Assembly: GCA_049969675.1 (NCBI GenBank)
Contig: JBMFOP010000052.1
Coordinates: forward strand, 1-16,909
Direction: 5' to 3'
Origin: Myxococcota bacterium
Lineage (GTDB): Bacteria; Myxococcota; SpSt-1050
Length of the DNA: 16,909 nucleotides
Shown: one piece after another, positions 1 to 16,909 of the stretch
Numbering within the stretch: the first letter of the stretch is position 1
Layout of the letters: each line of letters begins with the position of its first letter
Program-made: the position numbers

Positions 1-3000
1 GATGATAATATTTTTATGTTTGAACCGTATCGTTGTGAATCAATCAAGACCCAGAAGGCTGTTGAAGTAAAGTATTTTACAATGGATGAAAGACGAGAAG
101 AGCTATATTATGCCGATTTTCAGAAAAAAAATCTTGTGAAATTGAGTATGAAAGATCTGTCAATTATAAAAGAAGCGGATATCTATGGAATCTCTCCACA
201 AATGGTATCCGATGAGAACTCTGACTATATATTTCTTATTTATGACCAGCCACTATGGATAGAAAAGAGAAGAAAATCAGATCTTATGGCAGAACTGAGA
301 CTGGATGTTCTAAGGTCTGATGTGTGTGGATTTGGTAGTATTGGAATCTCTCTCTCTTTAGGCGGAGGTCATAGTTTATTCGCCTCCTTTATTAATTGCA
401 AAAGAGGTATAATTGAGATAGATATATCCAATCTTTACCCTGTTAAATTATTAGAACCAGAAGATAAAATTAACTGGTATATTGCCACCTCACACATCAA
501 TAACTCCCTATATGTAGCATATCCGTCAAGAAATTATATTTCAGAATATGATTTAAAGAGTTTAACTCTCAAAAGACATATTAATGCTGGTTTTGGTATC
601 AGGTTTATCTTAGAATCTTATGATGGTAAATTGCTATATGCGGCTGATTATTTGACCGGGAAAATATATATAATTGATATTATAGGGAACAAAATACTTA
701 ATATTTATCAATTTGGCAGAAAGACCTATGCTATAGCAGAACATCCATTTACTCATAATATCTTTGTGGGTGGGCCTGCCGGTATCTGGGAAATAGAATT
801 TGAAGGCGATAATGAAAAGCAAAAACACTAAAATTGTATTTGTCAGACCTATAAGCCCTCTTGGATATTATGCCAGAGTAAATATGCAACATCCAATAAA
901 TTTATGCCTCCTCGGGGCTATCGTAAAAAATGCTGGTTTTGTACCATATATATATGACTTTGAAGTTGAGGGTAATGACGAGAGTAAGTTTATCAAATTT
1001 ATTATTGATAGAGAGATAGATGTTGTTGGGTTCTCCTGTACAACTCCACAGATAAAATTTGCAGACAGACTCTCCGGAAAAATAAAGAGATTAATGCCAG
1101 ATATAAAATGTGTTGTTGGCGGTGCCCATATATCTGCAATCCCAAAAGAGACATTTAATGAATTTCTAAATTTTGATGTCGGTTTTGTAGGTGAGGCAGA
1201 TAATAGTATTGTTGAATATTTAAAATGTTTGGAAAAAGGCGAAGAATTTTATAACATCGCAGGAATTGTTTTTAGAAGAGATAATGAAATCATTTTTAAC
1301 CAGAATCCAGAGAGAATAAGAGATCTGGGAGATGTATTCCCTGCCAGAGACCTTTTAAGCATGAATAAGTATATGCACCTAAATAAATTTAAAAATGTTG
1401 CTGCACCCGGTGTGTATAAACCAGATATCAGGGCTACCCAATTAATACTTTCTCGTGGATGTATCTTTAATTGTCTCTTCTGCTCAAATGTATCTAACTT
1501 TAATGAAAGGAAAAATATTCCAAAAATTGTTGTAAGAAATATCCAGTCTATAAAGGAAGAAATACTGGATTGTAAATATAGATTTGGGATAAACCACTTC
1601 TCCGTTCAGGACGAACTCTTTCCTGCAAATAGAGATTTGTTGCATGAATTCTGTCGTATAATGGAGCAGGAAAAACTGACTTTTAACTGTAATTCAAGAA
1701 CAGATATATTAAGACTGGAAGATTATTATTATATGAAAAGGGCTGGTTGTCTACAAATAGGATTTGGAGTGGAGTCTGGCAGCGAAAGGATATTGAGGCT
1801 TATAAACAAAAGGCAGACAATTGATAAAATTGCAAATGCCTTTGATATGGCTAAAAGGGCTGGGATAAGAACTGTTGGTTATTTCCTGATTGGTTCTCAT
1901 CCAGATGAAAATGAAGAGGATATTATTGAGACTATAAAATTCATTAAATATATAAAACCCGATTTGATTACCTGTACCCTTGCAGTGCCATATCCCGGCA
2001 CTCAACTTAGGAATATACTTAAAGAAAAGGGATTGATATTCTCAAATGATTGGGATAAGTATGCATATTATTCACCTGAGCCTGTATGGAGAACTTTTCA
2101 TTTCAGCAGTAATGACCTGTTGGAACAACAATATAGAGTATTAAGAAGCCTTTATTTATCACCCAAATATATTTTACAGAGGTTAAAAGTTTTAGCATCA
2201 CCTTCCGAATTATTGATGTTATCAGAAGGTGGTTTACGAATGATAAAATTTTTATATGGAAGGTACAGGAAGAAGAATATGCATAAATAGATGGAGTATT
2301 TAATGAAAATTCTAAATAAGAACATTGATAGACAATCATTACTCTTAAAGATACTCAATATGGAAGGAGAACCAGAAGATGGATATGGAGTATATTTTCA
2401 TATAAAAGGGAGAAAGATATTAGATTTATGGGGAGCCTATGGGGCAAATGCCCTTGGCTATAATAATGAGATGTTGTGTAATTCTCTCATGTCTTTTCTA
2501 AAAGAAAATAGACCAAATGTAGTCTTCCCTTTTGAAAGGGAGGTCACGAAGAGGCTTGAGAGTGAACTTGGCAGAGTAAGTGGCTCTATATATACAAAAT
2601 CTATATTTACAACAGGCGGCTCGGAATCTGTTGAGACAGCATTAAAGATTGCATCCACTATAAACAGAGATAAGTATTACTTTATAACATTTGAAAATTC
2701 TTTTCATGGCAAGAGTATAGGGTCTCTATCTGTAACAATGCAACCCGAGATCAGAAAGGATATCCCATTATTAAAAAATGTATTGTTTTCCCGATATAAT
2801 GATACCATTTCGTTTGAAAAGATTCTTGATAAAGAGAAGAAAAATGTTGCAGCAGTTATATTAGAACCGATACAGGCAAATGGGGGAATAATTGAGGGAA
2901 ACGAATCATTTTTAAGTAAAGTCTCTGAACTATGTAAGAGGCACAATATCATTTTGATTGACGATGAGGTCTCTACAGGTTTGGGTAGAACCGGTAAATG

Positions 3001-15000: not shown

Positions 15001-16909
15001 AGAATGCTTCATAAAATCAGTTATATTTTAAATATGAAAAGGTATTATGATATCTCTTTAATCTCTGGATTGAGGATTTTCTTTGATATAAGAAGAGGGG
15101 AGAGATATTTAAAAGACTTTTTTAAGAGAGAGAGATGAGCCAACTTTTAATATTGCTATCTCTGCTTCTACCTATAAGTAGTGGAGAGATACCACTCGGC
15201 TGTATGGAGGATGAAAATCCAATCAGGCTCAACTATCCATTCTTTACAATACCAGTGGGTAAGAAGGTGATGTACAATGAAAAATGTGATAAAAAGCATT
15301 ATTTAAGTCAAAAACTACTTGATGAGATTTCTCCTTTAAATGGATTTACTGGATTGAAGAAAGAGAGTTCATCTGTTGTATTAAATAAAGATAGACAGTC
15401 AATAAAAAGATTCTATACAACATCAAACCTAACGCCTTATTATGGGATTAAGATTACAAAGGCAAAATTGAATATCATTAATAAGATTATGATAGCTCTT
15501 GAGAGAGAGTACGGAGATGGACTATTTTTACTGGTTTTGAGAAATGATAATGGAATGTTTGCAAGACAGATTATTGTTGATGAAATTAAGTGTGCAGTAG
15601 AGGTGATAATACCTGTTGCTGAATTTTTCCAGATACCTTATAAAGAGGGGGATTTCCTTGATGCAGAGTATCAGATTGAATTATATCTGATCAATTATAA
15701 TAAAATGAAATGGAAGTTTGTTGGGTTTGAAATAGAGTGAAATTATTACTTAGAAAATTTATAGTGATTATCCTGATATTTCTCTCTCTGGAGATATTAT
15801 TAAGGCTATTTAATAACCCTTTTTATGTCTCTGAGAAGAGGCTTTTTCAATTTAGAAAGGATTTGAAGATATCGGAGGGAAAATCGGGAATTTATATTGC
15901 AATGCTTGGCGATTCATTTACCTATGGTGTTAAGGTGAAAGATGAAGAGACATCCTCATATCAGCTTGAGAGACAATTGCGAGAGAGATTAGCTAGAGAA
16001 GATATATATGTAGATAATCTGGGTATAGCAGGGACTTCTACGATTGAACAGTATGTCATTTTTGAAAGAGTTGTTAAAAATTCTAATTATGATTTTGTAA
16101 TTTTGAACTTCTTTATTGATGACTTTACACCATACTACTACTTTAATACCCTCTTAAATCCATATGAATATTGTAGAGAGTATCTAAAGTCTGGTGGCAA
16201 TATGTTGGGTCTTCTCTCTATGATGAGATTATTTGAAATCACTACAATCTATTACGATATTATAAAAACATACATTAAAGTGGGCTCACCACTCACACCT
16301 GTATCATATATGTTGGAGAAGATGAGAGAGAGGGATTCGCTTAGATATATGTGTGCAAAGGGGAGATTGATTCAGATGGGAGAGGAGATTAAAAATTCCG
16401 GAAAGAGAGCGATATTTCTTATGATTCCCTCGCTTACCTTATATGATTATCAAAATCCATATCCAGAGGAGATAGCAAAATATGAGACAGAGGCGATGCT
16501 TATTGCAAAGGGGGCCGGATTTGAGGTAATTGATACAGTTGTGGAGTTGAGGGATAAATTAGACCAGCGGTTGATTGTGAAGAATGATATACACCTTAAT
16601 AAAGATGGATATCGCTTGATTGCAGAGCTAATTGCAGATAAGATTATAGCATTGATGAAAAGATAGGATTATGAAGAATATTTTGATTGGAAAGGTTGAG
16701 ACCGACCCTCTCATTCACTATGGAGGGTTATTTAATACACTTGAATGTTTGCTGTTTTTATCCTTTGTTTCATATCTGATATTCATCCCATTCATAAGAG
16801 AGAAGAGATATAAAAATTTTCTCTTTTATATTTCTACTCTAATGCCGATACTCAACATCTATTATAGGAACAATCATCCATTTGTGGGTGGAATATTTCT
16901 GGGGCACCT

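What a model noticed while it worked through the whole genome (the two positions that open the first line are those of the whole stretch)
812..16666. About 40-kb supercluster of B12-binding radical SAM paralogs (15 in the genome) with UbiA, GT2, CrtI-like and aminotrans [...]
Fifteen paralogs of the PH0819-type cobalamin-binding radical SAM (class B methyltransferase-like) family lie on three contigs (C44:14752-24964, five; C110:2448-7922, four; C52:812-15138, five, plus g01186 on C33). In the congener G002 their orthologs are contiguous on one contig (C41:47-82 kb), so the three pieces are fragments of one supercluster that also encodes a DPPR-synthase-like UbiA prenyltransferase (g01615), an 829-aa polyprenyl-phosphate GT2 (g01617), a LAB_N membrane protein, a class III aminotransferase (g01611), a CrtI/phytoene-desaturase-family flavoprotein (g02348), a GDSL lipase and a genus-specific 251-aa protein present twice (g01616, g02347). 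The content points to stepwi [...]
Evidence so far: Swiss-Prot best hit PH0819 for all (24-34% id), then BchE/Fom3; Pfam B12-binding + Radical_SAM. tblastn of C44/C52/C110 proteins on G002:C41:44-95 kb gives collinear orthologs at 57-95% identity in the order C44 genes, C110 genes (inverted), C52 genes. g01616: 4/4 genomes of the genus, 0/297 other Myxococcota. No Pfam/NCBIfam match for g01616, g01618, g01621, g01623. Cobalamin synthesis families absent.
(Added by a program. Inside this text positions count along the whole contig: contig position 1 is position 1 of the stretch shown here. "Call 12" and the like, gene names such as g00115 and contig names such as C1 are that model's own, and its searches are not shown. 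The text may have been shortened before it was handed on; [...] marks where a part breaks off. The agent that wrote the report below was given it as the finding of a first reader that could run no searches.)

Follow-up and report, generated by a model that had tools for sequence, protein, structure and literature searches.

The report
Swappable radical-SAM cassettes in glycosylation island
An uncultured bacterium carries a surface-sugar gene island in which one slot holds either of two different sets of vitamin-B12-type radical enzymes, which points to strain-specific sugar chemistry that has not been characterised; the reported single 15-enzyme supercluster is probably a blend of two strains' versions.

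Summary
The genes are real: five B12-binding radical SAM genes in the window, 15 in the assembly. The one-supercluster reading is only partly right. Only one of the five window enzymes has a collinear ortholog in G002; the aminotransferase and UbiA were not found there. Window 1-8714 (cassette A) and contig C110 (cassette B) are alternatives for one slot upstream of a conserved block. Two contigs of a congeneric species, 97% identical over that block, carry A and B respectively, and C110 ends in sequence identical to window 9297-9349. G000 probably mixes two strains, about 10 enzymes each. The conserved block is a lipid-linked glycosylation module: the 829-aa protein is a GT2 fused to a GT-C-fold domain, beside a second GT-C, LAB_N, one radical SAM enzyme and an SGNH protein. 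Relatives of one cassette enzyme lie within 8 kb of a GT2 in 42 of 80 loci, in bacteria and archaea. Hopanoid and carotenoid synthases were not found. Best reading: a replacement island whose radical enzymes tailor an envelope glycan; product and reaction unknown, methyl transfer untested. This scan noted such islands before in other genomes; the two-cassette polymorphism did not come up in my look-ups.

The parts
1..831 (+). Cassette A: 3' part of a membrane-anchored, probably beta-propeller protein (5' part off the contig)
   Evidence: No Pfam hit; 38% to full-length 487-496-aa proteins in G001 and L121; only weak propeller hits in relatives, so the fold is inferred
812..2290 (+). Cassette A: B12-binding radical SAM protein 1 (492 aa)
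   Evidence: Pfam both domains; model pLDDT 92.6, nearest folds AprD4, MgmA, TsrM, OxsB, CysS, TokK; subfamily lies near GT2 in 42 of 80 loci
2291..3580 (+). Cassette A: class III PLP aminotransferase (429 aa)
   Evidence: PF00202 E 2e-79; candidate PLP lysine K255; the order radical SAM - aminotransferase - radical SAM - GT2 recurs in L042 with a 36% homolog
3591..4997 (+). Cassette A: B12-binding radical SAM protein 2 (468 aa)
   Evidence: Pfam; 43% ortholog in G001 and 39% in L121 beside the same propeller gene
4965..6473 (-). Cassette A: B12-binding radical SAM protein 3 (longest ORF starts at 6524; ATG at 6473 fits the homologs)
   Evidence: Pfam; 46% to L121; homolog alignment starts at 6473
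6475..7896 (-). Cassette A: B12-binding radical SAM protein 4 (473 aa), with a strain-variable patch near 6978-7101
   Evidence: Pfam; 44% to L121; clustered differences in run X1 and in P0144
7893..8714 (-). Cassette A: UbiA-family protein resembling decaprenyl-phosphate phosphoribosyltransferase (273 aa)
   Evidence: PF01040; best PDB sequence hit 8j8j E 2.7e-15; below NCBIfam cut-offs; 45% ortholog in L121
8813..9349 (+). Cassette border: stretch shared with C110; near-identical 5' part, divergent middle, identical last 52 nt where C110 ends
   Evidence: DNA alignment, blastn 83% over 601 nt
8820..9575 (+). Conserved block: Cys-rich (23 Cys) predicted lipoprotein, 251 aa, found only in this genus
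   Evidence: 4 of 41 genomes; no Pfam/NCBIfam hit; no Atlas hit above 0.85 or TM 0.33; signal-peptide Cys conserved in 7 of 7 aligned copies
9586..12075 (+). Conserved block: GT2 (polyprenyl-phosphate sugar synthase type) fused to a GT-C-fold glycosyltransferase, 829 aa
   Evidence: PF00535 on residues 4-166, best NCBIfam ArnC below cut-off; model of residues 236-829 pLDDT 79.8; Foldseek rows to rank 18 all GT-C; VIA Z 16.5, rmsd 6.7, 427 aligned to AftA and Z 14.5, rmsd 5.3, 449 aligned to STT3
12072..13409 (+). Conserved block: second GT-C (PMT_2/ArnT-like) membrane protein, 445 aa
   Evidence: No hit itself; orthologs in G001 and G002 hit PF13231 (E 1e-6, 7e-5; over cut-off in the genome search); orthologs in L121 and L122 gave no hit
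13409..13699 (+). Conserved block: LAB_N small membrane protein, 96 aa; candidate flippase (inference)
   Evidence: PF07578 E 1e-29; 73-84% conserved in congeners
13696..15138 (+). Conserved block: B12-binding radical SAM protein 5 (480 aa), the only window enzyme shared by all congeneric loci read
   Evidence: Pfam; 66-72% in G001, G002, G003, L121, L122, L123; best PDB sequence hit AprD4
15135..15740 (+). Conserved block: 201-aa exported protein, possibly a carbohydrate-binding-type beta-sandwich (lead only)
   Evidence: No family hit; Atlas model pLDDT 0.45, TM 0.51-0.59 to domains of glycan-active proteins, all under the naming bar
15737..16666 (+). Conserved block: membrane-anchored SGNH/GDSL hydrolase or acyltransferase, 309 aa
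   Evidence: PF13472, PF00657; 58-62% in congeners
16671..16909 (+). Conserved block: start of a 477-aa multi-pass membrane protein (to C52:18104), last gene of the island; a third GT-C is suspected, not shown
   Evidence: No Pfam/NCBIfam hit for it or its orthologs; 53-60% conserved

Best explanation
A replacement-type flexible island for cell-envelope glycosylation. Shown: a conserved, tightly coupled block (lipoprotein, GT2-GT-C fusion, second GT-C, LAB_N, one B12-type radical SAM enzyme, exported 201-aa protein, SGNH protein, membrane protein) preceded by a slot that holds either cassette A (window 1-8714) or cassette B (C110 type), both types occurring in more than one species of the genus. 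Inferred mechanism: the GT2 domain loads a sugar on a polyprenyl phosphate, LAB_N helps flip it, and the GT-C domains transfer it outside the inner membrane to an envelope acceptor (protein, lipid or glycan; unknown). The cytoplasmic radical SAM enzymes, using scavenged cobalamin, change the sugar or its substituent before export (C-methylation, deoxygenation or ring contraction, as GenK, AprD4, HpnJ and Cds do). Exchange of the cassette by homologous recombination in the flanks changes the surface chemotype. The G000 assembly most likely holds both cassettes because two strains were binned together.
For: Alternative cassettes read directly: L121 (A) and L123 (B) are 97.0% identical over 11,486 nt from 69 nt upstream of the lipoprotein gene onward and unrelated before it. 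C110 ends in 52 nt identical to the window. A 26,627-nt contig holds near-identical copies of the last full C44 enzyme, two window enzymes and the lipoprotein, and none of the three C110 proteins looked up (co-location inferred from equal contig length). In G001 the C44-end gene is directly followed by a window-type propeller and enzyme. Cassette B orthologs differ between three species by 41-69%, like the conserved block (34-72%). GT-C fold and PMT_2 hits. GT2 within 8 kb in 42 of 80 loci (29 of 44 loci of at least 15 kb), any glycosyltransferase in 49 of 80 (32 of 44), against 3 and 7 of 94 tiles of G000. Similar islands with GT2, GT4, GT-C, NDP-sugar enzymes, DegT or Wzx in G004, G006, G032, L035. 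Cobalamin motifs GG and GE align with TokK, OxsB, CysS, MgmA; a cobalamin riboswitch in 4 of 4 genus genomes, upstream of a TonB receptor in G000. Island GC 33-37% against 41% in the flanks.
Against: No product, substrate or activity is known; function rests on neighbourhood and fold. The island itself lacks NDP-sugar dehydratases, DegT and Wzx/Wzy genes, so the sugar donor is not evident. 31 of 80 relatives' loci showed no glycosyltransferase with my profiles (many are short contigs), the profiles were built from those same loci, the baseline is one genome and kin are not independent. Ten or more radical enzymes are many for one sugar. Cassette B's CrtI-like protein and G002's polyprenyl synthase plus DGGGP-synthase-like UbiA point to lipid chemistry. 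G002 carries cassette B plus distant relatives of two cassette-A enzymes elsewhere in its island (31-40%), so the gene sets are not wholly exclusive. A tandem A+B chromosome in the G000 strain is not excluded by any read spanning the junction. No peak of differences at the border between L121 and L123.
Confidence: 0.62

Rival explanations
1. The radical enzymes build or modify a membrane lipid core (alkyl or isoprenoid chain methylation, rings, cross-links as in ladderane, GDGT or hopanoid pathways), and the glycosyltransferases only add its head group.
For: Best NCBIfam matches include HpnJ, BchE and the ladderane family, all below cut-off. CrtI-like flavoprotein in cassette B; polyprenyl synthase and DGGGP-synthase-like UbiA at the left end in G002. 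Lipid-modifying precedents in PMC13459092 (sections 2.6 and 3 read). The one run that holds the window is labelled hot spring.
Against: Squalene-hopene cyclase and squalene/phytoene synthase not found in 4 of 4 genus genomes, both found in G004. The isoprenoid genes are in G002 only. Relatives' neighbours are mostly glycan genes. Strain-level swapping fits an exposed structure better than a core lipid (inference from PMC4033161).
Confidence: 0.18
2. A secreted small-molecule or antibiotic cluster (moenomycin-, aminoglycoside- or pactamycin-like) with many tailoring radical enzymes.
For: Nearest solved structure by sequence and fold is the apramycin enzyme AprD4; an aminotransferase is present; such clusters hold several B12 radical enzymes (recalled).
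Against: No scaffold synthase, NRPS/PKS, exporter or resistance gene in the ORFs read; GT-C enzymes work outside the membrane on lipid-linked donors (established knowledge); the same subfamily sits by GT2 in small archaeal and bacterial genomes.
Confidence: 0.08
3. One reading: all 14 island enzymes, UbiA, aminotransferase and CrtI-like protein lie in tandem on one chromosome (C44, C110, C52) with a duplicated lipoprotein gene, and act in one stepwise pathway.
For: Both cassettes are in one assembly of 0.69% contamination; the two lipoprotein copies differ in the middle; G002 shows that 13-14 paralogs can share one island.
Against: C110 ends exactly where it becomes identical to the window. 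Marker-gene contamination does not see accessory islands (established knowledge).
Confidence: 0.12

Closest known systems
Three-component extracytoplasmic glycosylation (GtrABC; ArnC/ArnEF/ArnT; mycobacterial DPPR synthase with Aft/Emb)
   Same: Polyprenyl-phosphate GT2, small membrane protein and GT-C enzymes in one coupled block; cassette A adds a DPPR-synthase-like UbiA.
   Different: GT2 is fused to a GT-C with no Pfam family; there are two or three GT-Cs; known systems (recalled) carry no battery of radical SAM enzymes; acceptor unknown; ArnC and DPPR-synthase cut-offs not reached.
Replacement flexible genomic islands (Lopez-Perez et al. 2014, PMC4033161; passages read)
   Same: Different gene clusters of similar function at one location in strains about 97% identical, no integrase or transposase seen, mosaic border gene in G000.
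   Different: The swapped part is a sub-cassette made almost wholly of radical SAM genes while the glycosyltransferases stay fixed; both types persist in more than one species; no border peak in the L121/L123 pair.
Sugar-acting radical SAM enzymes with a B12-type N-terminal domain: HpnJ, AprD4, GenK/GenD1, MoeK5; and calditol synthase Cds
   Same: Same domain architecture; AprD4 is the nearest solved structure; HpnJ and Cds contract sugar rings on lipids (PMC13459092 sections; PMC9204698 passages).
   Different: About 20% identity to solved enzymes, all named-family cut-offs missed by a wide margin; no hopanoid synthases in the genus; unlike AprD4 these keep the cobalamin-binding motifs. Substrates of GenK/GenD1 and MoeK5 are recalled; PMC12931638 lists them only as C-methyltransferases.
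Ladderane cluster of anammox bacteria (several B12 radical SAM genes; TIGR04072)
   Same: Several B12-type radical SAM genes clustered; TIGR04072 is the best NCBIfam match of window 3591-4997 (146 bits).
   Different: Cut-off 360 not reached; no fatty-acid synthesis genes in the island ORFs read.

Membership tests
Cobalamin-dependent radical SAM enzymes | CxxxCxxC cluster motif in a radical SAM domain | tested here: met
   5 of 5 window proteins, 17 of 17 rows of alignment A4
Cobalamin-dependent radical SAM enzymes | N-terminal Rossmann cobalamin domain with GG and GE motifs and no His ligand motif (PMC9204698) | tested here: met
   PF02310 over cut-off in 5 of 5; GG in 5 of 5 window proteins, GE intact in three and altered (GYAE, NEGE) in two; C110:3900 lacks both; no DxHxxG in 17 of 17; profile aligns over this domain with TokK, OxsB, CysS
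Cobalamin-dependent radical SAM enzymes | Cobalamin is bound and needed for turnover | not testable with these tools
   AprD4 and ArsL have a related domain and bind none (PMC12931638 section 6); uptake is plausible, CobS not found
Class B radical SAM methyltransferases | Methyl transfer chemistry | tested here: inconclusive
   No sequence or structure feature separates methylases from non-methylases in the largest group; fold neighbours include both kinds
TokK/CysS-type iterative methylases | Trp below cobalt (A-x-S-x-Y-x-W) and Trp two residues after the Cys motif | tested here: not met
   Neither in the five window proteins; no Trp at Cys motif +2 in 17 of 17 rows
BchE, HpnJ, HpnR, PhpK, ApyD, ladderane and other named families | NCBIfam score over the curated cut-off | tested here: not met
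   Best scores 118-155 bits against cut-offs of 360-750 for the five window proteins
Three-component glycosylation system | Polyprenyl-phosphate sugar synthase (GT2, ArnC/GtrB type) | tested here: met
   PF00535 with ArnC, PpgS and dolichyl-phosphate hexose transferase as best, sub-cut-off models
Three-component glycosylation system | GT-C transferase | tested here: met
   Fold of residues 236-829; PMT_2 in two of four orthologs of the 445-aa protein scanned from G001, G002, L121, L122
Three-component glycosylation system | Flippase (GtrA or ArnE/F type) | tested here: inconclusive
   No GtrA or EamA/SMR hit; LAB_N occupies the position; the paper search for a flippase role returned 0
Three-component glycosylation system | Identified sugar donor and acceptor | not testable with these tools
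   Needs biochemistry
Replacement flexible genomic island | Different gene clusters of similar function at the same location in strains of one species | tested here: met
   L121 versus L123; only the right border was read
Replacement flexible genomic island | Peak of substitutions in the bordering shared gene | tested here: inconclusive
   Divergent patch inside the lipoprotein gene between the G000 copies; 94-100% near the border for L121/L123; dN/dS not computed
Hopanoid or carotenoid tailoring cluster | Squalene-hopene cyclase or squalene/phytoene synthase in the genome | tested here: not met
   0 of 4 genus genomes (85-99.9% complete), present in G004 and controls; CrtI family score 106.9 against cut-off 238.1
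Decaprenyl-phosphate phosphoribosyltransferase | Family score and downstream DprE1/DprE2 epimerase | tested here: inconclusive
   Best PDB and NCBIfam matches are this family but below cut-off (106.9 against 207); DprE1/E2 not searched

The most novel reading that the evidence does not exclude
An undescribed system for surface-chemotype switching: a fixed GT2-GT-C export module is fed by interchangeable batteries of cobalamin radical enzymes that rewrite the carbon skeleton of envelope sugars (C-methylation, deoxygenation, ring contraction), and the alternative batteries have been kept side by side across speciation, as expected under phage-driven balancing selection. It would assign a role to a large uncharacterised part of the B12 radical SAM superfamily found in anaerobic bacteria and archaea.
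Probability: 0.33. Interest if true: 0.85.

Novelty: new variant of a known kind. Interest (0 to 1): 0.55.

Why it matters
[quoted passage not shown] A strong tie of one such subfamily to glycosylation loci in many phyla of bacteria and archaea gives a substrate class to test, and L077 offers a cultured host. Two natural cassettes on a 97% identical background are a ready comparison for finding the product. The case also warns that paralog counts in binned genomes can add up alleles of different strains.

Tried and rejected
Recent tandem duplication: rejected (17-31% identity, median 23.5%; genus rows need 14 changes on the tree, at least 8 forced; quick tree only, no clade test run). Hopanoid and carotenoid tailoring: synthases not found. 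C33 enzyme as part of the island: rejected by context. Lipoprotein: no family or fold lead; a metagenome scan with it found no relative among 93 pattern matches. Runs: no RNA holder listed. In run X1 all 30 bins are covered at about 6x, one contig crosses 7007-9150 and no loose end is listed where a C110 copy would leave one; contigs show presence, not absence, and X1 may be the source sample, so I give this no weight beyond consistency. X2 holds next to nothing. Rfam: 0 matches in window, L001, L002. Promoter scan of 8600-8900 at chance level. The mixed alignment A4 was too diverse for a locus scan. The first neighbourhood count mislabelled three clusters (Gfo/Idh/MocA and SPASM radical SAM as GT4; hexose dehydratase as radical SAM) and counted TPR-only proteins as GT-C; one search is the corrected count. 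The profile search was dominated by GT2 hits; it gave two stand-alone relatives of the GT-C half and one other fusion, none with a GT-C Pfam hit. The bridging pieces between C44, C110 and C52 were not found elsewhere in G000. No complex prediction was run. Paper searches returned no title describing such islands; I saw listings only, and the library lacks most subscription papers.
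Full report
1. What is in the window. The window is G000:C52:1-16909, GC 31-38%. Fourteen genes fill it, most overlapping or abutting. Five are B12-binding radical SAM proteins over both Pfam cut-offs; the others are a class III aminotransferase, a UbiA protein, a GT2 of 829 aa, LAB_N, an SGNH protein and four proteins without a Pfam hit. None of the five reaches an NCBIfam cut-off. 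The 14 island paralogs are 17-31% identical, median 23.5%. A quick tree of 71 proteins (11 rows dropped for length or missing motif; P0012 and P0014 labelled as genus by my inference; no bootstrap, no clade test) needs 14 changes of the genus label, at least 8 forced by well-supported branches. They are old subfamilies brought together.

2. The supercluster claim. G002:C41 holds 13 full-length paralogs and one truncated one in 35 kb. C44 and C110 genes have collinear orthologs there (54-82%), and so has window 8820 onward (37-75%). Window 1-8714 has not: four enzymes match at 29-40% elsewhere, UbiA was found in 0 of 3 congeners, the aminotransferase only at 30-33%. C110 begins inside a second copy of the lipoprotein gene, and its last 52 nt are identical to window 9297-9349: two upstream paths meet one downstream sequence.

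3. Two cassettes, one slot. A metagenome scan with the GT-C half gave four loci. L121 has a propeller gene, three enzymes 39-46% identical to window enzymes and a 45% UbiA ortholog upstream of the lipoprotein gene. L123 has a SPASM radical SAM, four enzymes and the CrtI-like gene, 41-62% identical to C110, in the same place. From 69 nt before the lipoprotein gene the two are 97.0% identical over 11,486 nt, and GroEL is 99.8% identical; the conserved block is only 48-66% identical to G000, so this is another species with the same two options. L120 equals G002 (B). G001:C72 shows the C44-end gene followed by window-type genes. Equal contig lengths, an indirect sign, agree: a 26,627-nt contig holds members of the clusters of C44:23558, window 812, window 6475 and the lipoprotein, while the three C110 clusters looked up list only 8,568- and 6,543-nt contigs; GT2-fusion contigs of 25,576 and 51,113 nt have window-812 orthologs, those of 103,420 and 42,424 nt the CrtI-like ortholog. 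Cassette B has diverged between three species as far as the conserved block (41-69% against 34-72%), which fits an old polymorphism; cassette A is more divergent (38-46%) and varies in order and content. I infer about 10 enzymes in about 30 kb per G000-type chromosome. A tandem arrangement in the G000 strain is not excluded, and only the right border was read.

4. The conserved block. The C-terminal 594 residues of the GT2 protein, modelled from 10 sequences (pLDDT 79.8), match GT-C enzymes only in the top Foldseek rows (AglB, STT3, DPY19, AftA, PglB); VIA-align gives Z 16.5 (rmsd 6.7, 427 aligned) with AftA and 14.5 (5.3, 449) with STT3, against 7.2 for the first unrelated row. Identity is 8-13%, so the acceptor cannot be read from this. 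Stand-alone relatives exist (P0223, P0260). The next gene's orthologs hit PMT_2 in G001 and G002 but not in L121 and L122. With LAB_N this is the layout of a three-component glycosylation system; the flippase role is inference. The 201-aa protein gives only a weak lead to carbohydrate-binding folds, the lipoprotein none.

5. The enzymes. The 812-2290 model (97 sequences, pLDDT 92.6) is nearest to AprD4, then MgmA, TsrM, OxsB, CysS, TokK. Its profile aligns with the cobalamin domains of TokK, OxsB, CysS and MgmA, but with AprD4 only from residue 164. GG is in all five window proteins, GE intact in three; the TokK/CysS tryptophans are missing (motifs from PMC9204698, passages). PMC12931638 (outline and section 6) states that methylases and non-methylases of the largest group cannot be told apart and that AprD4 binds no cobalamin. 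CobS was not found in 4 of 4 genus genomes, a cobalamin riboswitch in 4 of 4, in G000 before a TonB receptor: uptake is likely.

6. Context elsewhere. The best 80 of at least 584 loci of the 812-2290 subfamily come from many bacterial and archaeal lineages. GT2 lies within 8 kb in 42 of 80, GT-C in 22, NDP-sugar epimerases or dehydratases in 22, DegT in 18, further B12 enzymes in 18; any glycosyltransferase in 49 of 80, or 32 of 44 long loci, against 7 of 94 tiles of G000 (labels from 32 representatives; caveats in the Against line). Among 41 genomes of the phylum, a profile of the island enzymes gives 12-26 matches in five (G000, G002, G004, G006, G032) and none in 16 (the query rows come from the genus). 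The clusters read in G004, G006 and G032 are glycan loci too.

7. Mechanism. Shown: gene order, folds, motifs, the cassette swap, the neighbourhood. Inferred: lipid-linked sugar formation, flipping, transfer to an envelope acceptor, radical tailoring before export, and selection by phages or predators, which PMC4033161 (passages) proposes for replacement islands. Sugar-acting precedents are HpnJ and Cds (PMC13459092, sections 2.6 and 3) and AprD4 (PDB title). A lipid-core role stays open; hopanoids and carotenoids are unlikely.

8. Novelty. The frame is known (three-component glycosylation, replacement islands). Nine paper searches (listings only; no supplements consulted) showed no description of B12 radical SAM batteries in such islands. 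Earlier notes of this scan report similar islands in other genomes, one of them strain-variable; I had reached the glycan reading before that call, and I did not check those genomes. A look-up for swapped cassettes returned nothing. New here are the GT2-GT-C fusion and two alternative enzyme cassettes kept in more than one species. Verdict: observation partly confirmed, interpretation partly supported, new variant of a known kind, interest 0.55.

Noticed in passing
G000:C33:117-2128 (L004:117-2128): A 185-aa protein with a weak Os1348/NHLP leader match (E 0.003, below cut-off), a twin-arginine-like motif and a Cys after a hydrophobic stretch, coupled to the lone B12 radical SAM gene whose best model is ApyD: a possible peptide- or lipoprotein-modifying pair, separate from the island.
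   Followed up: partly
G002:C41:43203-47399 (L011:13203-17399): TauE, a variant radical SAM (NF045502 over cut-off), a polyprenyl synthase best matching archaeal IdsA and a UbiA resembling DGGGP/chlorophyll synthases at the island's left end; not found in G000. Could be an isoprenoid lipid module.
   Followed up: partly
G000 genome-wide, e.g. C44:109-728 and C44:9150-9615; C110:621-717: A dispersed intergenic repeat family of 100-470 nt at 70-90% identity on dozens of contigs, often at contig ends.
   Followed up: no
window 6978-7101 and 16651-16871: Clustered differences between the window and run X1 contigs; the first patch changes the same stretch of the enzyme as in P0144, suggesting recombination inside a radical SAM gene.
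   Followed up: partly
G000:C44:22267-23541; G002:C41:57632-58147: One paralog has a very long branch and a short C-terminus in G000 and is cut to 171 aa in G002: possibly decaying.
   Followed up: partly
G000:C110:3900-5171: Cassette B paralog that keeps the Cys motif but lacks the GG and GE cobalamin motifs; conserved in G002 and L123.
   Followed up: partly
G000:C37:13330-13528 (L039): Cobalamin riboswitch upstream of a TonB-dependent receptor gene, probably the B12 importer.
   Followed up: partly
L069, L073, L077, L078, L082, L084, L088 and related: A recurring operon in Geobacter-like and Nitrospirota genomes: GT2, NDP-hexose 2,3-dehydratase, Gfo/Idh/MocA oxidoreductase, DegT, methyltransferase, B12 radical SAM and TPR-bearing GT-C genes; L077 is from a cultured strain and has part of it.
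   Followed up: no
G000 genome-wide: Eleven PMT_2-family matches outside this island, 10-13 in each congener: the genus is rich in GT-C enzymes.
   Followed up: no
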